A stretch of 64,000 bases of DNA from the NCBI GenBank assembly GCA_021796435.1, contig JAJYXM010000016.1, positions 438,625-502,624 on the forward strand. The letters are read 5' to 3'. The translations under genes and the position numbers were made by a program. The first letter of the stretch is position 1, and every line of letters begins with the position of its first letter. A model generated the notes under the pieces. It was given only the letters and a program-made list of their open reading frames with translations, searched no databases and was not told where the DNA came from. This document shows, piece by piece, positions 514-23,459 of the stretch. This DNA comes from a bacterium (GTDB lineage Bacteria; Patescibacteriota; Patescibacteriia; 2-12-FULL-60-25).

Positions 514-630
514 AATTACGAATTACGAATGACGAATGACGAATTGTTGGAAGGGGTTGGGTTAATTACGAATGACGAATGACGAATTGTTGGAAGGGGT
601 TGGGTTAATTACGAATGACGAATTGACATC
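514..630. repeat. 43-bp tandem direct repeat, about 2.7 copies (unit aattacgaatgacgaatgacgaattgttggaaggggttgggtt), directly upstream of the regulator gene
   Basis: Read directly: 521-563 and 564-606 are identical, and a third copy at 607-630 is truncated. It has an internal ACGAAT/GACGAAT sub-periodicity and ends in ttgacatcggtATG. Confidence 0.9.
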
Positions 631-633
631 GGT

Positions 634-1401
634 ATGCATGAGGCGACATTGAGGTTGTTGGAACTTGGGTTGAGCAATAAAGAGGCAAGCGTGTATCTTG
701 CGATGTTGGAGATCGGACCAGCTGGCGTACAGGATATAGCGCAGAAAGCCGGGGTAAACCGCTCGACGACTTATCTGACATTGGATGAACTAAAGAAGCG
801 GGGGTTGGCTTCATCCAGTACGGAGAACAAAAAGACCCTGTTCACGGCGGAATCGCCCTCGCGACTTTCTGCTGTCTTGAACAGGGAACGTGATGAGCTG
901 GAGAGCAGGAAGAAGAAACTGCAGGAATCGATTCCTTATTTCATGGCGCTCTACAATGCGATCGATGACAAACCGCAGGTCAGGTTCTTTGAGGGCGAAG
1001 AGGGGATAGTGGCCTTGCGGGAATTCATGGCCCAATCCAGAGGGGAGTATCTGAGCTTCACCGCGATTGATGAAGGGACGTTGCGCATGGCCAACATCAA
1101 TCCTGCACAACGTCTCAAGATGTCGCGTAGAGTGCATGGGAGGTATATTTTTTCGTTGAAGCCTAAGTTCGCGATCCCGAAGATGGATCTGACGAATTGG
1201 CAGGTCAAACAGCTCCCGTACGGCGCTTATCCTTTTACGGGCGAGATAAATATCGTGGATAATAAAGTCGCGGCTTATGTGGTCAAGAACAAGCCGCTCG
1301 GGATTTTGGTCGAGAACAAAGAGATGACGGATCTGTTTCGCGCCATGTTCAATGCGGCGTGGCAGGTGGGTAAACCGGTGGATAAGCGAAAGATGGGGTG
1401 A
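634..1401 (+). CDS. TrmB-family (sugar-responsive) transcriptional regulator
   Basis: The N-terminal winged HTH LGLSNKEASVYLAMLEIGPAGVQDIAQKAGVNRSTTYLTLDELKKRGL matches the TrmB family HTH pattern, and the length of about 250 aa is typical. This is a family-level call only. Confidence 0.7.
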   Translation: MHEATLRLLELGLSNKEASVYLAMLEIGPAGVQDIAQKAGVNRSTTYLTLDELKKRGLASSSTENKKTLFTAESPSRLSAVLNRERDELESRKKKLQESIPYFMALYNAIDDKPQVRFFEGEEGIVALREFMAQSRGEYLSFTAIDEGTLRMANINPAQRLKMSRRVHGRYIFSLKPKFAIPKMDLTNWQVKQLPYGAYPFTGEINIVDNKVAAYVVKNKPLGILVENKEMTDLFRAMFNAAWQVGKPVDKRKMG

Positions 1402-1402
1402 G

Positions 1403-1680
1403 TGAAGACAGGTATTCGCTTTCTTACCTGCGGGTCTCGTTTCAGTCTATCTCGAACAGGTCCTCGGTCAAGAAAGCGAATACCTGTCTTCACTTAGAGG
1501 AAGGGGAAGGATCAGGCGAGGAGCCCGCTTTCTTACCTGCGGGGCTCGTTTCAGCCTATCTCGAACACATCCTCGGTCAAGAAAGCAGGCACCCCATTGT
1601 CACATAGAGGAAAAGGGAGGGGTCAGGCGAAGTGTCAGCTTTCTTACCTGCGGGGCTCGATTTTGTTTATCTTGAACGGT
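1403..1680. repeat. Tandem array (period about 110 bp, about 2.6 units) of a hairpin-forming element with conserved core ...gctttcttacctgcggg(g/t)ctcg...tatctcgaaca..tcctcggtcaagaaagc...
   Basis: Copy A (1403-1492) is bounded by a perfect 23-bp inverted repeat (tgaagacaggtattcgctttctt / aagaaagcgaatacctgtcttca). Copy B is at about 1521-1590, and copy C at about 1631-1680 is truncated. A purine-rich spacer tagaggaaggggaagg(g)atcaggcga lies between units. The array starts 1 nt after the regulator stop codon. Confidence 0.85.
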
Positions 1681-1843: not shown

Positions 1844-1940
1844 ATTTGGTTCTTTAGACAACCGTTGTCATTCTGATTTGGGGAAATTGCCTCGATTCCT
1901 GCCTGCGCGGGGATGACGAAAGCGGTTTTTCTGAATCAGG

Positions 1941-2483
1941 ATGACAACGAACAACCCCCGTCAAACGGGGGAGAAAGGTTTTGCCGTGAAAAAGTCGTTT
2001 CAGGCTGCAGCGATGGGAATTGCCGCGGCGTTCCTGCTGATCATCATCAGCGGAATCATCTGGCGCGCGTGCGCCAACCACTCCAAGGGTCTCGTGATCC
2101 GGTGGGTTTACCCGCAGGACCATGTGCCATACGGAGTGCCGGTGGTCGAAGGCACGTTTAACTCGTCGGGGAATCAACACCCCTGGCAGAAAGAACTGTG
2201 CGAGATGGAAAGGACAGCGAGCAACGAATACTCGTGCACGGTGGATATCCCATCGGGCAGCGAGTTCTTGTTCGCGATCCGCTACGTCGACTCCAAGACG
2301 GACAAGACGTGCTGGGTCTTCGACCACAGCGCGGATAAGCCGTGCGGAGGCAATGGTGCGGACGCAGGTCGGGTCTTCCTGGCCTTCGAGTCCAAGCCGA
2401 TCACGTTCACCGAGGTCAGCAATGGCCTCAAAGATTCGACAGGCGCTGCGTCGTTCTATGATGCACAAACTTCGATGCCGTGA
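1941..2483 (+). CDS. Small membrane-anchored protein (N-terminal TM helix) with a conserved Cys-containing C-terminal domain shared with the 812-aa lipoprotein
   Basis: Hydrophobic segment AAMGIAAAFLLIIISGIIW. The segment HPW...YSC...CWVFDHSADKPCGGNGADAG aligns with HPW...YSC...CWTFDHSTDFPCGGNGADVG at the C-terminus of the 4428..6866 ORF. Confidence 0.55.
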   Translation: MTTNNPRQTGEKGFAVKKSFQAAAMGIAAAFLLIIISGIIWRACANHSKGLVIRWVYPQDHVPYGVPVVEGTFNSSGNQHPWQKELCEMERTASNEYSCTVDIPSGSEFLFAIRYVDSKTDKTCWVFDHSADKPCGGNGADAGRVFLAFESKPITFTEVSNGLKDSTGAASFYDAQTSMP

Positions 2484-4427: not shown

Positions 4428-6866
4428 ATGCATAGCCACGTCAACTTCAAGTTCATCTCAGGTCTCGCGTTCTTCGTCGCCATCAGCATCAGCGCCTGCT
4501 CGACCGATTCCGGTACGAGCAAGAAGGCGACCGGCACCACGGTGCAGGCCATCGACAGCGACAACGACGGCGTGGCCGACTGTACGGATCCGCTTCGGAC
4601 GTACGTCGACCTGCAGTGCGTCCCTGTCGACAACTGCCCCGCAATGTCGAACCACGACCAGGCGAATATCGACGGCGATAGCCTGGGCAACGCGTGCGAC
4701 AACGATATCGATGGGGACAAAGTCCCCAACTGCGCCGACGATGGCGTGCTCCCGTGCAACGACACGAGCGCGTCGAGCGGTCGTACGGTCGCCTCCGTGG
4801 CGGTCGACAACTGCATGTACGTTCCGAATCCGCCGCCCTCGTGCGAGGGTGATGCGGACTGCGTGTTCGCTGGCGGGACCTGCGTGAGCGGATACTGCTC
4901 GGGCCAGCTCGACTCGGACAACGACGGGTTGGGCGACAAGTGCGACGGCGATTCCGACAACGACGGGATCCTGGACTGCACTGACCCGACCCTGACGTAC
5001 ACGGACCCGGCATGCGTGTTCGCGGACAATTGTCCAACGGTGTCCAACCCCGACCAGTCCGATTCCGACATGGACGGCCAGGGCGACGAGTGCGACAACG
5101 ATAGGGATAACGACGGGATCTGTGATCCCAACGGCCCTACGTTCGGCTGCACCGGGCAGGACAACTGCCCCGACGTCGCCAACAACAACCAGAGCGATTC
5201 CGACAAGGACGGGCTCGGGGACGCTTGCGACCCCGACGACGACAACGACGGCGTGCCGGACACGGCAGACAACTGCCAGTTCACGCCGAACGCGGACCAG
5301 GTCGACACGAACCACGACGGGATCGGCGACGCCTGCGTCAACGATTTCGACGGCGACGGGATCCCCAACGGGAACGACAACTGCCCGCGGGTCCCGAACG
5401 TCGATCAGGCCGACAGCGACCACGACGGCGTCGGAAATGCATGCGAGGGTGATAGCGACGGCGACGGAGTGCAGGATTGCTCGAATGTCGGGCTCCTGGT
5501 CTACACCGACCCGAACTGCATCCCCAAGGACAATTGCCCCACGGTCGCCAACTTCGACCAGCTCGACCAGGACGGCGACGGGATCGGCAATCTCTGCGAC
5601 CCGGATCTCGACGGCGATGGCGTGCCGAACGCGACCGACAACTGCCCGAACCAGGCCAACGCCGACCAGGCGGACCAGGACGATGACGGGATCGGGGATG
5701 TCTGTGACGACGATGTCGACGGCGACGGGATCCTCAACGGGCTCGACAACTGCCCGCGGGTTCCGAACCCCGACCAGGCCAACAGCGACGGCGACGCCTA
5801 CGGCAACGCGTGCGACGACGACAAGGACAATGACGGGTATTGCAACCCAGGCGTGGTCCTTCCGAGCGCGCAGTGCACCGGCGTGGACAACTGCCCCGAC
5901 ATCGCCAACCCGACGCAGTCCGACCTGGACAAGGACGGACTCGGGGACGCGTGTGACGACGACGCCGATGGCGACGGGCAGACCGCCGCCGAGGGAGACT
6001 GCTGCGACAAGGGCTCGGAGATCTCGTCGCTGCGTCAGTGCAACACGCTGACCGCGCCGCTGATCAACACGAACGCGCTCGAGCTCTGCGACCAGCAGGA
6101 CAACAACTGCAACGGCCTGAAGGACGAGGGCGTCGACGACGACCACGACAACTGGTCGAAGCCTGGAGTCCTTCCGGAGCAGGTGTGCCCCACCAACCTG
6201 GGCGGCGCGGATGACTGCGACGACACGGATCCGAACGTGAACCCCGGCAACGGGACTTGCGGCGGAACGGGTGGCGCGGCCGGAAGTGCTGGCACGGGTG
6301 GTACGGCAGGCGCCGCGGGAACCGGCGGAACGGCCGGGACCGGTGGTACGGCTGGCACGGGTGGCGCTGGCGGAGCTGGCGGCACGGGTGGTACGGCAGG
6401 CGCCGCGGGAACCGGCGGAACGGCCGGGACCGGTGGTACGGGTGGTTCGGCTGGTGCGACGACTGACCTCGTCTTCACCTGGACGCCGGATCCGCAGCGC
6501 ATGCCGACGGGGCCGGTCGACATCATGGGATGGTACGTCGACGTCCTGAACGGCGGCGTGCAGCACCCGTGGGGTACGGTCTGCAGCGAGACGATTGCTT
6601 CGGGCATCTACTCGTGCCTGGTCACGCTGCCCAGCGGCGCACACCTCGTGTTCGACGGCCGCTATGCCTACTCGATGGCGAGCGGCGGCTACTGCTGGAC
6701 CTTCGACCACAGCACGGACTTCCCGTGCGGCGGGAACGGCGCGGACGTCGGACTCACCGTGGTCAAGGACGGCGCCGTGGTCGTGCCCTTCACCTACGTC
6801 TGGAACGGCAAGGGCACAGGCCCGGTCGGCGCCGTGTACTTCAACGGCGACCTCATCGTTCCCTGA
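4428..6866 (+). CDS. Large secreted lipoprotein: about 20 thrombospondin type-3 (TSP3) Ca-binding repeats, a Cys-rich metal-binding-like motif, a Gly-rich linker and a conserved C-terminal domain
   Basis: A strong SD (gagaggaggg) precedes the ATG. The signal peptide plus lipobox is AFFVAISISAC. It has many DxDxDGxGDxCDxDxDNDG / DNCPxxxNxDQxDxD units (TSP_3-like). CDQQDNNCNGLKDEG and DCDDTDPNVNPG resemble the Myxococcus-type Cys-rich putative metal-binding motif. Its C-terminal 130 aa is homologous to the 1941..2483 product. Confidence 0.8.
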   Translation: MHSHVNFKFISGLAFFVAISISACSTDSGTSKKATGTTVQAIDSDNDGVADCTDPLRTYVDLQCVPVDNCPAMSNHDQANIDGDSLGNACDNDIDGDKVPNCADDGVLPCNDTSASSGRTVASVAVDNCMYVPNPPPSCEGDADCVFAGGTCVSGYCSGQLDSDNDGLGDKCDGDSDNDGILDCTDPTLTYTDPACVFADNCPTVSNPDQSDSDMDGQGDECDNDRDNDGICDPNGPTFGCTGQDNCPDVANNNQSDSDKDGLGDACDPDDDNDGVPDTADNCQFTPNADQVDTNHDGIGDACVNDFDGDGIPNGNDNCPRVPNVDQADSDHDGVGNACEGDSDGDGVQDCSNVGLLVYTDPNCIPKDNCPTVANFDQLDQDGDGIGNLCDPDLDGDGVPNATDNCPNQANADQADQDDDGIGDVCDDDVDGDGILNGLDNCPRVPNPDQANSDGDAYGNACDDDKDNDGYCNPGVVLPSAQCTGVDNCPDIANPTQSDLDKDGLGDACDDDADGDGQTAAEGDCCDKGSEISSLRQCNTLTAPLINTNALELCDQQDNNCNGLKDEGVDDDHDNWSKPGVLPEQVCPTNLGGADDCDDTDPNVNPGNGTCGGTGGAAGSAGTGGTAGAAGTGGTAGTGGTAGTGGAGGAGGTGGTAGAAGTGGTAGTGGTGGSAGATTDLVFTWTPDPQRMPTGPVDIMGWYVDVLNGGVQHPWGTVCSETIASGIYSCLVTLPSGAHLVFDGRYAYSMASGGYCWTFDHSTDFPCGGNGADVGLTVVKDGAVVVPFTYVWNGKGTGPVGAVYFNGDLIVP

Positions 6867-6885
6867 CCTCCTTCCTCTGACGCTT

Positions 6886-6915
6886 GGGCGAGGCATGCCT
6901 CGCCCCTACACTTTT
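6886..6915 (+). terminator. Rho-independent terminator candidate (perfect palindrome gggcgaggcatgcctcgccc followed by ctacacTTTTgag)
   Basis: A 20-nt perfect GC-rich palindrome lies at 6886-6905 with a T-run at 6911-6914, 20 nt after the stop of the 812-aa ORF. A second hairpin is at 6916-6950 (gagaccgc...gcggtctc). Confidence 0.5.
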
Positions 6916-6979
6916 GAGACCGCTTCGGCAACCCATGCTGAGGCGGTCTCTTCCATTTCAGGGGAGAAACTTCATCAGT

Positions 6980-7021
6980 AGGGGCGAATGATCATTCGCC
7001 CCTACATTCGTATCTGCCTTT
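6980..7021 (+). terminator. Second terminator-like palindrome (aggggcgaatgatcattcgcccct) followed by ...ctgccTTTTTcg
   Basis: A 24-nt perfect palindrome. The tail cgcccctaca is shared with the first hairpin, suggesting a duplicated design. A T5 run lies at 7017-7021. Confidence 0.45.
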
Positions 7022-22955: not shown

Positions 22956-22988
22956 TCCTGAAAGCTACGGCTGAAGGATCGACGCGAT

Positions 22989-23012
22989 GGGGTGCACCTC
23001 GCGGTGCACCCC
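22989..23012 (+). terminator. Stem-loop (ggggtgcac ctcgcg gtgcacccc) 34 nt after the giant ORF; further hairpins follow (cccaaga ttcg tcttggg; ccaaaaccc...gggtttttgg)
   Basis: A perfect 9-bp GC-rich stem. No U-tract immediately follows, so it is terminator-like but not canonical. Confidence 0.35.
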
Positions 23013-23130
23013 AGAGGGTCTGGATCGTTTAGACGGTCCGAATATGGCGCCCAAGATTCGTCTTGGGAACGCTACCAAAACCCGGCCACGTCGCGTTTAA
23101 CGCGATTGCGCTGGGTTTTTGGTATGTGGG

Positions 23131-23290
23131 AGAGATGCTGAAACTATGTTTTCAGCTGCGGGGCTCGTCTAATTTATCTCGAACACATCCTCGCTTGAAA
23201 ACATAGTTTCAGCATCTCTTTGAAGGGAAGGAAATAGGCTGCGGAACTCGGCTGCTAGATTTAATATGGCAGCCTCAGACAGTCCTCGAT
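23131..23290. repeat. Two further copies (one intact, one degenerate) of the 1.4-kb hairpin element family
   Basis: Copy D (23131-23219) has the same conserved core (ctgcggggctcgtctaatttatctcgaacacatcctcg) as copies A-C, but completely different flanking arms (agagatgctgaaactatgttttcagc / gcttgaaaacatagtttcagcatctct) that are again mutually complementary. Degenerate copy D' lies at about 23236-23290 (aggctgcggaactcgg...cagtcctcgatc) with arms aggctgc/gcagcct. Purine-rich gaagggaaggaaa spacers recur. Confidence 0.8.
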
Positions 23291-23459
23291 CCCAAAAAGT
23301 CTAACTTTCAGCCTTGAAGAGGGAAGGAAAGGAATTGAATAGGAATCGTTTATTTTAATTTTTTGAGAAGGCACATTTTTTGCATACCAGCTACTAGCTA
23401 CTAAATACTAACAACTAAATACCAGCCCCACCCCTAGCTCCCTTTACCCCGCTTATGTT

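What the first reader, a model, noticed from the sequence alone, without database searches (positions are those of the whole stretch)
1403..1680. Family of hairpin elements with a conserved core and copy-specific complementary arms (tandem array at 1.4 kb, further copies at 23.1 kb)
Four good copies and one degenerate copy share a core of about 35 nt (ctgcggggctcg...tatctcgaaca.atcctcg). The flanking arms differ completely between copies (A: tgaagacaggtattcgctttctt/aagaaagcgaatacctgtcttca; D: agagatgctgaaactatgttttcagc/gcttgaaaacatagtttcagcatctct), yet they stay perfectly self-complementary. A conserved loop with freely varying but paired stems is the signature of a selected RNA or DNA secondary structure, for example a MITE/REP-like element, a terminator/attenuator family or a small ncRNA. 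Copies sit immediately 3' of two genes, the TrmB-like regulator and the 1300-aa surface protein, and are separated by purine-rich GAGGAAGGGGAAGG spacers. I do not recognise the element as any named repeat.
Basis: seen in the sequence. Interest (0 to 1): 0.7.

Follow-up and report, generated by a model that had tools for sequence, protein, structure and literature searches.

The report
Capped-hairpin intergenic repeats in Patescibacteria
A small group of ultra-small (Patescibacteria) bacteria carries an undescribed family of about 92-base hairpins at gene ends, with a conserved tip and a stem that differs in every copy but stays paired; it resembles the repeated palindromes of other bacteria (REP elements) but fits no named family.

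Summary
The window holds two intact copies (A 1401-1494, D 23131-23219). Copy B is a chimera, C is truncated, and E belongs to a second subtype that has lost its 5' arm.

About 36 copies turned up in six related Patescibacteria genomes. None turned up in viral contigs, phage or plasmid records, or Rfam.

Each intact copy has three parts:
- a Watson-Crick stem, mostly 21-29 bp, with a copy-specific sequence; all 26 stem pairs covary, and 0 of 500 shuffles match;
- a conserved junction, CUGYGG opposite UCCUCG, with a bulged U on each strand;
- an apical module that comes in three types.

Every copy lies on the G-rich strand, and wherever flanking genes could be called it is in sense to at least one neighbour. 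Many start at or inside the upstream gene's stop codon, and most are followed by a purine-rich tract resembling a ribosome-binding site. Flanking genes are unrelated housekeeping genes.

Related genomes differ in whether a copy is present. Tandem duplication and recombination between cores explain copies B, C and E.

My best reading is a REP-like repeat that is co-transcribed and acts as an RNA stem-loop at the mRNA 3' end or between cistrons, with the conserved cap bound by an unknown factor. That function is inferred, not shown. The family fails the defining tests for MITE, REP, attC and intrinsic terminator.

The parts
1390..1400 (+). G-rich 5' flank (AGATGGGGTGA), which supplies the last codons and most of the stop codon (TGA 1399-1401, whose final A is the first stem base) of the TrmB-like gene.
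   Evidence: The same ATGGGGTGA/TAG ending closes unrelated genes next to other copies (murJ in L009, TrmB in L097). GGGTAG ends uppS and gatC. TrmB orthologues without the element end 1-4 residues earlier or with different tails.
1401..1494 (+). Copy A, intact main-type element: 5' arm 1401-1427, core 1428-1466, 3' arm 1467-1494.
   Evidence: 25-bp perfect arms. Fold z = -9.7. Covariance model R1 scores 94 bits.
1495..1510 (+). Purine-rich spacer (TTAGAGGAAGGGGAAGG): a stop codon plus a tract resembling a ribosome-binding (Shine-Dalgarno, SD) site.
   Evidence: A comparable tract follows most copies listed in all genomes. It is absent from empty sites, so it belongs to the unit.
1511..1603 (+). 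Copy B, a chimeric element. The core 1537-1575 is intact. The 5' arm is of the 'arm 2' type and the 3' arm of the 'arm 1' type.
   Evidence: Only 13-15 bp pair. R1 scores 69.6 bits. Both parental arm types are intact in L132.
1604..1622 (+). Second purine-rich spacer (ATAGAGGAAAAGGGAGGGG).
   Evidence: Part of the 109-nt tandem unit.
1623..1680 (+). Copy C, truncated. It has a 5' arm of the arm-2 type plus the 5' half of the core (1648-1659), then diverges into a T-run.
   Evidence: 64% identity to copy A over the unit. No stable fold (z = +0.9). Not found by R1. The orthologous second copy in Ess09-17 is truncated at the same place.
23131..23219 (+). Copy D, intact main-type element: arms 23131-23154 and 23196-23219, core 23156-23193.
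   Evidence: 24-bp perfect arms. Fold z = -9.1. R1 scores 95.6 bits. Orthologous copies with unrelated arms occur in Ess09-17 and Ga0265297.
23220..23236 (+). Purine-rich spacer (TTGAAGGGAAGGAAATA).
   Evidence: Read from the sequence. Same kind of tract as after A and B.
23237..23313 (+). Copy E, second subtype: core 5' box 23239-23250, internal hairpin GCTGC/GCAGC 23251-23273, core 3' box 23274-23288, 3' arm 23289-23313. The 5' arm is missing.
   Evidence: The intact orthologue L134 9799-9902 has 22-bp arms and an internal hairpin CGGTG/CACCG. The same subtype occurs at L112 7004-7108.
23314..23335 (+). Purine-rich 3' flank of copy E (TTGAAGAGGGAAGGAAAGGAAT).
   Evidence: Read from the sequence.

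Best explanation
This is a lineage-restricted family of interspersed 'capped hairpin' elements.

Anatomy. The hairpin is about 92 nt; with its purine-rich flanks the unit is about 110-165 nt. Each intact copy has:
- a Watson-Crick stem, mostly 21-29 bp (median 24; two of 17-18 bp), whose sequence is specific to the copy;
- a conserved junction: a covarying closing pair, then 5'-CUGYGG opposite UCCUCG-3', with one bulged U on each strand and a Y.U mismatch;
- an apical module that comes in three types.

Shown:
- The family exists only in a few related Patescibacteria genomes among those searched.
- Copies sit in spacers between unrelated housekeeping genes. Every copy is on the G-rich strand, and wherever flanking genes could be called it is in sense to at least one neighbour.
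- The copies often begin at or inside the stop codon of the upstream gene. A stop codon plus a purine tract resembling a ribosome-binding site usually follows them.
- Copies are gained or lost as whole units between related genomes.
- Copies duplicate locally and in tandem.
- Recombination between cores yields chimeric or truncated copies. Window copies B and C are of this kind, and E has lost its 5' arm.

Inferred:
- The element behaves like enterobacterial REP/BIME elements. It is passively co-transcribed with the upstream gene and works as RNA, as a very stable stem-loop at the mRNA 3' end or between cistrons.
- In that position it would protect or define the 3' end. The long perfect duplex would be a substrate for RNase III.
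- It would also block ribosomes that have just terminated from re-initiating, as proposed for 'ribosome termination structures'. The purine tract would then give the next gene a fresh ribosome-binding site.
- The conserved junction and cap would be the binding site of an unidentified trans-acting factor.
For: Family and structure:
- Covariation in all 26 stem pairs, 0/500 shuffles.
- R1 finds 30 matches in 181 kb of the window plus related loci, and 11 more in newly fetched orthologous loci. All lie on the sense strand.
- The three apical types share one junction and one architecture.
- In the junction, the G33.U60 pair of the main type is A-U in the second type. The G/T-variable column 34 is unpaired in the RNAalifold model.
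- The internal hairpin of the second type covaries: GCTGC/GCAGC against CGGTG/CACCG.

Selection:
- The core is essentially identical between genomes whose four-fold degenerate sites are only 30-59% identical.
- The D site is orthologous in three lineages. It has three unrelated arm pairs of about 24-27 bp, each perfect or with a single irregularity beside the core.
- Between closer relatives the arms do not change at all: 0 changes between Ess09-17 and L132, where silent sites are 72% identical.
- Secondary tandem copies are chimeric, truncated or mismatched.

Position:
- The stop codon of the upstream co-oriented gene lies in the G-rich flank or inside the 5' arm in 10 of the 17 copies inspected.
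- Copies lie inside or beside housekeeping operons: gatC|gatA, uppS|mgsA, GT2|murJ, after rplL, khpA, TrmB and an epimerase gene, and upstream of nusA and smc.
- In 13 of 15 loci with usable data the element strand is the G-rich strand, with skew magnitude at least 0.089; skew is weaker at L056 (0.059) and near zero at L120.
- Neighbouring small hairpins in the same 3' UTR carry UUCG loops, an RNA-stability motif, and also change stem sequence between relatives while staying paired.

Dynamics:
- Three copies present in Ga0265297 are absent from the 80-84% identical Ca. Uhrbacteria JACRQE locus. The empty sites have neither arms nor purine flanks.
- TrmB loci of more distant relatives lack the element.

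Literature analogue for a stop-codon-adjacent structure acting as a translational insulator: PMC7518266.
Against: - There are no expression data, so transcription, the functional strand and processing are all inferred.
- The stems contain almost no G.U pairs. Stem mismatches are more often A.C (about 9) than G.U (about 4) on the sense strand. That is not what selection on a sense-strand RNA predicts, though the count is too small to decide.
- Gene orientation and leading strand coincide in every locus. The orientation rule therefore fits a mechanism tied to replication and single-stranded DNA equally well.
- Copy D and its orthologues sit after a terminator-like hairpin with a T-run, where sense transcription may be low.
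- A generic protective hairpin needs no conserved 40-nt cap, and the factor proposed to bind it is hypothetical.
- About five copies lie between divergent genes. They are upstream of a co-oriented gene rather than downstream of one.
Confidence: 0.5

Rival explanations
1. The element is primarily selfish, non-autonomous mobile DNA. It folds as single-stranded DNA during replication. A trans-encoded enzyme, for example an HUH/Y1 nuclease of the RAYT or IS200/IS605 kind, recognises the conserved cap and bulges. Stem sequence is irrelevant as long as it pairs. The conserved loop with a variable stem would be like the nick-site hairpins of rolling-circle replication origins.
For: - Presence/absence differences between related genomes, local duplication with inherited arms, and dispersal among unrelated genes.
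- Strict co-orientation with the G-rich leading strand, as is known for IS200/IS605 and REP elements (my own knowledge).
- Almost exclusively Watson-Crick stems with few G.U pairs, which suits DNA-level upkeep of the palindrome.
- The element brings its own stop codon and SD-like tract, a plausible adaptation that lowers the cost of inserting at gene ends.
Against: - No transposase or nuclease gene was seen among the Pfam-scanned genes of the window or the loci. This was not a full screen.
- No target-site duplication and no conserved ends.
- Dispersed copies have unrelated arms but near-identical cores. This implies old copies each kept by selection, which selfish spread alone does not give.
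- Orthologous copies persist across lineages whose silent sites are saturated.
- No copies in viral contigs or in phage or plasmid records.
Confidence: 0.25
2. Only the cap (junction plus apical module, about 45 nt) is the mobile or convergently recruited unit. It enters the apical loop of ordinary pre-existing hairpins, so the arms are simply the host hairpin's stem.
For: - These genomes are full of simple intergenic hairpins whose stems also differ between relatives.
- Some simple hairpins share the flanking motif (GATGGGG...hairpin...AGAGGG at 22984-23018).
- A 23-nt insertion replaces the TTCG loop of the terminator-like hairpin at 23087-23109, relative to a strain whose Wzy-type O-antigen ligase protein (P0125) is 99% identical to the window's. 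Loops therefore do accept insertions.
Against: - Both empty sites examined lack the arms and the flanks as well as the cap.
- New local copies inherit the arms of their neighbour (L121 5415 from 6219).
- Element stems are mostly 21-29 bp, whereas the ordinary hairpins here are 7-12 bp.
- No pair was found with the same stem both with and without the cap.
Confidence: 0.08
3. The cap is the business end of a stand-alone RNA: a small RNA excised from the transcript (for instance by RNase III cutting the long stem), a new self-cleaving ribozyme, or a ligand- or protein-binding aptamer. In this reading it is not a passive structural element.
For: - About 15 conserved unpaired or internal-loop nucleotides flank an optional, covarying internal hairpin. 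This pattern is typical of catalytic or binding cores.
- The closing stem varies in sequence, as in small ribozyme families (my own knowledge).
- There are many copies per genome.
Against: - No match to any Rfam ribozyme, riboswitch or small-RNA family. Only generic hairpin (microRNA precursor) hits appear, far below threshold.
- The third apical type shares little beyond the junction.
- There is no promoter or terminator of its own. A sigma-70-like match on the opposite strand exists in one sub-family only.
- No covariation evidence exists inside the cap of the main type, because it is invariant.
Confidence: 0.1
4. The elements are a family of intrinsic transcription terminators or attenuators.
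For: They lie at gene ends in sense orientation and have strong stems.
Against: - Each stem is followed by purines, not by a U-tract. The terminator scan does not flag them.
- Copies sit inside operons such as gatC|gatA.
- Copy D follows a separate, conserved terminator-like hairpin.
Confidence: 0.04
5. The arms are guide or 'spacer'-like sequences acquired from invaders, making this a hairpin-encoded immune memory.
For: The arms are copy-specific, and their sequence differs even at orthologous sites.
Against: - The arms of A and D have no exact match in 2.9 million viral contigs.
- Arm divergence matches the divergence of silent sites, and arms are unchanged between close relatives. No acquisition mechanism is needed.
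- No associated genes were seen.
Confidence: 0.02

Closest known systems
REP/BIME elements (repetitive extragenic palindromes) of Enterobacteria and Pseudomonas
   Same: Short non-coding palindromic repeats. They occur in tens to hundreds of copies, in intergenic spacers and at operon junctions, often in tandem clusters. They are co-transcribed and able to stabilise upstream mRNA. Their orientation is biased.
   Different: REP stems are conserved in sequence within a genome, are only about 10-15 bp long, and carry a 5' GTAG recognised by a RAYT transposase. Here the stem is copy-specific and mostly 21-29 bp. The conserved part is the cap. No RAYT is known for this family.
MITEs (for example Correia/NEMIS, RUP, ERIC)
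   Same: About 100-150-nt non-autonomous repeats that fold into long hairpins. They insert near gene ends and can supply regulatory signals. Related strains differ in presence or absence.
   Different: MITE terminal inverted repeats are the conserved, transposase-recognised part, and they are flanked by target-site duplications. Here the arms are not conserved, and no duplication was seen at two filled/empty site pairs.
MIRUs (mycobacterial interspersed repetitive units)
   Same: Intergenic repeats inside operons, oriented with transcription. Their ends overlap the stop and start signals of the flanking genes (my own knowledge).
   Different: MIRUs are tandem direct repeats with small ORFs, not hairpins with a conserved cap.
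Ribosome termination structures (RTS; PMC7518266)
   Same: A stable mRNA structure immediately downstream of the stop codon, proposed to insulate translation between cistrons.
   Different: RTS is a statistical folding signal with no sequence family. Here a specific conserved module is repeated, and not all copies abut a stop codon.
Integron attC sites
   Same: Located 3' of genes. The sequence varies but the hairpin, with extrahelical bases, is conserved. They function as a folded single strand.
   Different: attC conserves the base of the stem (the RYYYAAC/GTTRRRY boxes) and varies the tip. This family does the opposite. There is no integrase and no cassette-like gene turnover.
Nick-site hairpins of rolling-circle (HUH Rep) origins
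   Same: A conserved loop sequence on a stem of variable sequence.
   Different: Those are single sites next to a rep gene, with short stems and a 9-nt loop motif. They are not dispersed chromosomal repeats.

Membership tests
MITE | Terminal inverted repeats conserved between copies, matching those of a parent IS | tested here: not met
   Arms share no more than 8-9 nt between non-orthologous, non-adjacent copies. Every arm column varies.
MITE | Target-site duplication flanking the insertion | tested here: inconclusive
   Two filled/empty comparisons (L121 against L108) show no direct repeat at the borders. The genomes are about 80% identical, so the borders are blurred.
MITE | A related autonomous element with a transposase in the same genomes | not testable with these tools
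   Only fragments of the carrier genomes could be read. No transposase appeared among about 30 genes scanned with Pfam.
REP/BIME | Short imperfect palindrome with a conserved sequence and a 5' GTAG head | tested here: not met
   The stem sequence is copy-specific and there is no GTAG head. The conserved part is apical.
REP/BIME | Extragenic, multi-copy, clustered or tandem, oriented | tested here: met
   About 36 copies in roughly 350 kb of related DNA. All are intergenic and on the sense strand. Tandem pairs or triplets occur at six or more loci.
REP/BIME | Cognate RAYT (Y1 transposase) gene | not testable with these tools
Intrinsic terminator | G+C-rich stem immediately followed by a U-tract | tested here: not met
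   Stems are followed by stop codons and purine runs. The consensus scan does not flag them.
Integron attC | Conserved R''/R' boxes (RYYYAAC ... GTTRRRY) at the base of the hairpin, with a variable tip | tested here: not met
   The bases of the stems are not conserved. Conservation lies at the tip.
Any Rfam 15 family | Score at or above the family's gathering threshold | tested here: not met
   No gathering-level match in the window. Permissive scans of all three element loci give only microRNA-precursor (generic hairpin) hits at 14-36 bits, against thresholds of 52-230.
Ribosome termination structure (functional class) | Stable mRNA structure starting within about 10-15 nt of the stop codon | tested here: met
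   Met for copy A and nine or more other copies. Not met for copy D, which lies 176 nt downstream.
RNase III substrate (functional class) | About 20 bp or more of near-perfect duplex RNA | tested here: met
   Stems are mostly 21-29 bp, and 13 of 19 intact copies have no mismatch. Actual cleavage cannot be tested here.

The most novel reading that the evidence does not exclude
The conserved cap (the CUGYGG/UCCUCG junction with two bulged U plus the CUCG...CUCRRACA internal loop) is a new functional RNA module. It could be a self-cleaving or factor-guided processing signal that defines mRNA 3' ends, or releases a small RNA, in these reduced genomes. It would be carried on a stem whose length is selected but whose sequence is free. 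Alternatively the cap is a new kind of mobile unit that colonises hairpin loops.
Probability: 0.15. Interest if true: 0.8.

Novelty: new variant of a known kind. Interest (0 to 1): 0.55.

Why it matters
Patescibacteria have very small genomes with little non-coding DNA and few described regulatory RNAs or repeats. A repeat family kept at gene ends in housekeeping operons is therefore unlikely to be mere junk, especially as its cap stays nearly unchanged over distances at which silent sites are saturated.

It offers a candidate handle on how these organisms form, process or insulate mRNA 3' ends. It is also a clean natural example of a stem whose pairing is kept while its sequence turns over completely.

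In practice, the covariance model marks a narrow clade and flags recombination hot spots. Chimeric copies mark past rearrangements.

If the cap proves catalytic, or proves to be bound by a dedicated factor, it would be a new RNA class.

Tried and rejected
1. **Known RNA families.** Rfam at gathering level and at permissive thresholds gave only generic hairpin hits.
2. **Phage or plasmid origin.** No blastn match. The core pattern is absent from viral contigs. One loose-pattern viral hit (L122) is a chance match inside high-GC sequence without arms, and R1 finds nothing there.
3. **Arms as spacers.** The arms of A and D are absent from viral contigs.
4. **Over-permissive first scan.** Genome-wide copy numbers and the apparent restriction to one half of the Ess09-17 contig therefore cannot be trusted.
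5. **Promoter on the opposite strand.** TTGACC-16-TAGACT inside copy A is present only in one sub-family. Rejected.
6. **My first model of the inner helix** (CGGGG with CCUCG and a CUG bulge). Column 34 (G/T) would break it in 5 of 19 copies. The RNAalifold register explains the variants better.
7. **Strand inference from mismatch type.** An early count of 4:0 A.C over G.U faded to about 9:4 with more copies. Not decisive.
8. **Special arm-replacement mechanism.** Not needed, because arm divergence (36-54% identity between the window and Ess09-17) equals four-fold-site divergence (40-59%).
9. **Motif recognition by eye.** Hammerhead, K-turn, loop E, tRNA-like acceptor/T-arm, LexA box, dif, parS and KOPS (GGGNAGGG does resemble the GGGTAGGG flank). 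None fits across copies. ARAGORN finds no tRNA in the window.
10. **Literature searches** for repeats or structured RNAs in Patescibacteria found nothing relevant.
11. **Source contig.** The window's own source contig could not be fetched.
Full report
**What is in the window**

Copy A (1401-1494) and copy D (23131-23219) are hairpins with 25-nt and 24-nt perfectly complementary arms around a 38-39-nt core. They fold at -57 and -49 kcal/mol, about 9-10 standard deviations below shuffled controls. The core pattern does not occur by chance: 0.00 matches are expected.

The array at 1.4 kb is a 109-nt tandem unit present 2.4 times.
- Copy B keeps a perfect core, but its arms barely match.
- Copy C stops after the 5' half of the core.
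- Copy E, just after D, has a different cap (CTGCGGAACTCG, a GCTGC/GCAGC hairpin, then CTCAGACAGTCCTCG) and no 5' arm.

**It is a family, and a narrow one**

- A pattern scan of one genome per species returned mostly chance hits. True copies, with arms, occurred only in Patescibacteria: MAG Ess09-17 (one 1.24-Mb contig, many loci), JBDSJN01 bin.323 and Ca. Uhrbacteria JACRQE01.
- A strict pattern scan of JGI metagenomes found a single sample, Ga0265297, including a 1.36-Mb contig.
- Viral contigs and phage and plasmid records have none. The one loose viral hit is spurious.
- Rfam 15 has nothing at gathering level. Permissive scans list only microRNA-precursor models, which score any long hairpin.
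- The window comes from a relative of Ess09-17. Their TrmB genes are 83% identical in DNA, and their four-fold degenerate sites are 40-59% identical.

**Structure**

I aligned 19 intact copies (alignment A1).
- With a 26-bp outer stem, 91.9% of cells pair, against 56.9% after shuffling and 39-54% with slid partners.
- All 26 pairs show changes on both sides, and no shuffle reaches the observed score.
- The pair that closes the stem next to the core covaries: G-C 11 times, C-G 7 times, A-U once.

RNAalifold continues the helix into the core: C27-G65, a bulged U28, G29-C64, a C30.U63 mismatch, G31-C62, G32-C61 and G33.U60. One U is bulged on the 3' strand, one pair further out. This register fits the variants:
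- Position 34 (G or T) is unpaired.
- Position 30 can be C or U.
- In the second cap type the G.U becomes A-U.

A covariance model (R1) finds 30 matches in the window plus the related loci, and 11 more in loci fetched later. All are on the same strand as the neighbouring genes.

Three cap types share the junction CUGYGG / UCCUCG and the long stem:
- the main type;
- the type of copy E, seen at L112 7004-7108 and intact at L134 9799-9902, whose internal hairpin covaries with the window's;
- a third type at L046 348-441.

Stems are mostly 21-29 bp, with a median of 24 and two of 17-18 bp. 13 of 19 intact copies have no mismatch at all.

**Position**

- In 13 of 15 loci with usable data the element strand is the G-rich strand, with skew magnitude at least 0.089. 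Skew is weaker at L056 (0.059) and near zero at L120. The window's GC skew is +0.10.
- Wherever flanking genes could be called, the element is in sense to at least one neighbour.
- In 10 of the 17 copies inspected, the stop codon of the upstream co-oriented gene lies in the G-rich 5' flank or inside the 5' arm. Examples are ATGGGGTGA after TrmB and murJ, GGGTAG after uppS and gatC, and ATGTAG after an epimerase gene.
- TrmB orthologues without the element end slightly earlier or with different tails. The element therefore supplies the last codons and the stop.
- On the 3' side, most copies are followed by a stop codon and a purine run resembling a ribosome-binding site, some 25-45 nt before the next start codon where genes are close.
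- The neighbours are ordinary, unrelated genes: gatC|gatA, uppS|mgsA, GT2|murJ|fecR-like, rplL, khpA, nusA, smc, mraW|clpB, TrmB, epimerases and glycosyltransferases.
- About five copies sit between divergent genes, upstream of a co-oriented gene.
- Copy D and its orthologues follow a chain of small hairpins and a terminator-like hairpin with a T-run.

**Evolution**

- Ca. Uhrbacteria JACRQE and Ga0265297 are 80-84% identical around one copy that they share, and its arms are identical. Three further copies in Ga0265297 are missing from JACRQE, and the empty sites contain neither arms nor purine flanks.
- One of those copies has nearly the same arms as its neighbour 800 nt away, so it is a local duplication.
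- The TrmB site is occupied in the window, Ess09-17 and L132. It is empty in JACRQE and in relatives whose TrmB protein is 72-74% identical.
- L132 keeps two intact tandem copies at that site. Ess09-17 has truncated the second.
- The window has three copies, and the middle one combines the 5' arm of copy 2 with the 3' arm of copy 1. That is the product expected from unequal exchange between cores.
- Another Ess09-17 copy (L097 4398-4490) has a perfect core, the 3' arm of its intact L132 orthologue, and a foreign 5' arm.
- The D site is occupied in the window, Ess09-17 and Ga0265297. The cores are the same, but the three arm pairs are unrelated (about 36% identity between the window and Ess09-17, which is the level of silent sites). 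Each pair is about 24-27 bp and perfect or nearly so.
- Between the closer pair Ess09-17 and L132, whose silent sites are 72% identical, the arms of copy 1 are identical.

Stem sequence is therefore free in the long run. Pairing, stem length and the cap are held.

**Interpretation**

The persistence of the pairing and of the cap argues for selection on a folded single strand at each locus. Sense orientation, abutment on stop codons and location inside operons make the mRNA the most economical candidate for that strand. So do the UUCG-capped hairpins alongside.

I therefore read the element as REP-like in behaviour. It would be a duplicative intergenic hairpin that, once transcribed, forms a very stable stem-loop at the mRNA 3' end or between cistrons. 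That stem-loop could do three things:
- shield the upstream message from 3' exonucleases;
- serve as an RNase III site, because the duplex spans more than two helical turns;
- stop terminating ribosomes from re-initiating, as proposed for ribosome termination structures (PMC7518266), while its purine tract re-supplies a ribosome-binding site.

The conserved junction and cap imply a specific partner, which is unknown.

None of this function is shown. Three things keep a replication-linked, single-stranded-DNA mechanism alive, and with it a mainly selfish element:
- gene strand and leading strand coincide everywhere;
- the stems have almost no G.U pairs;
- their few mismatches lean to A.C on the sense strand.

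**Classification**

The family fails the defining features of the classes it was tested against:
- MITEs: no conserved terminal repeats.
- REP: no conserved stem and no GTAG.
- Intrinsic terminators: no U-tract.
- attC sites: conservation is at the tip, not the base.

It matches nothing in Rfam, and I found no description in the literature searched. I file it as a new variant of the known kind 'interspersed palindromic intergenic repeat / candidate structured RNA motif'.

Noticed in passing
window 521-623: A perfect 43-nt tandem repeat (AATTACGAATGACGAATGACGAATTGTTGGAAGGGGTTGGGTT), 2.4 copies at 100% identity, containing AATKACG heptamer runs. It lies in the spacer between the glycosyltransferase gene and the TrmB-like gene.
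   Followed up: no
window 1863-1949: A hairpin in the leader of the downstream small gene. Its 16-nt arms (CGTTGTCATTCTGATT / AATCAGGATGACAACG) are conserved in Ess09-17 and L132. The enclosed loop differs completely and grows from 55 nt to about 115 nt with nested hairpins in L132. JACRQE has different but still complementary arms at the same place.
   Followed up: partly
window 22989-23067, with L134 and L136 orthologues: The 3' UTR of the 1300-aa gene is a chain of small hairpins, several capped by TTCG (UUCG tetraloops). The stems at the same positions differ between the window, Ess09-17 and Ga0265297 but stay paired. One hairpin, CCCAAGA-TTCG-TCTTGGG at 23050-23067, is conserved between the window and Ess09-17.
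   Followed up: partly
window 23077-23120: A terminator-like hairpin (AAAACCCGGC ... GCTGGGTTTTT). Its loop is 23 nt (23087-23109, itself a small palindrome CGCG-TTTAA-CGCG). A strain whose Wzy-type O-antigen ligase protein is 99% identical (L135) has just TTCG there. This is a strain-level insertion into a hairpin loop.
   Followed up: partly
window 6886-7005: The spacer between the thrombospondin-repeat protein gene and a Wzy-type gene holds three further strong palindromes. One is a perfect 28-nt palindrome, GTAGGGGCGAATGATCATTCGCCCCTAC, whose GTAGGGGCG start resembles the 5' flank of the elements.
   Followed up: no
window 4428-6866 (+) and 4458-6896 (-): Two mirror ORFs of exactly 812 aa on opposite strands. 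The + strand one is a thrombospondin type 3 repeat protein (Pfam E = 1e-59). The antisense ORF is probably a by-product of the repeat's codon composition.
   Followed up: no
window 1-64000: Every Pfam-annotated gene scanned is a cell-envelope or glycan function: several GT4/GT1 glycosyltransferases, two Wzy_C O-antigen-ligase-like proteins (one with TPR repeats), asparagine synthase, a GHL15/FG-GAP protein, and a methyltransferase-GT fusion. From 35 kb onward the genes are packed on the + strand with almost no spacers and no elements.
   Followed up: partly
L009, L019, L046, L055, L061, L082, L097, L103, L112, L134 (Ess09-17 contig JAVHLR010000001.1): All copies recovered from this 1.24-Mb contig lie between 680 and 1152 kb, all on its minus strand. 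None was recovered from the other half.
   Followed up: no
L120 about 1590-1660: A tRNA-like sequence (GCCGTTGTAGCTCAGCTGGTAGAGCA...) begins about 90 nt downstream of the element on the same strand. This copy therefore sits between a TPR protein gene and a tRNA gene.
   Followed up: no
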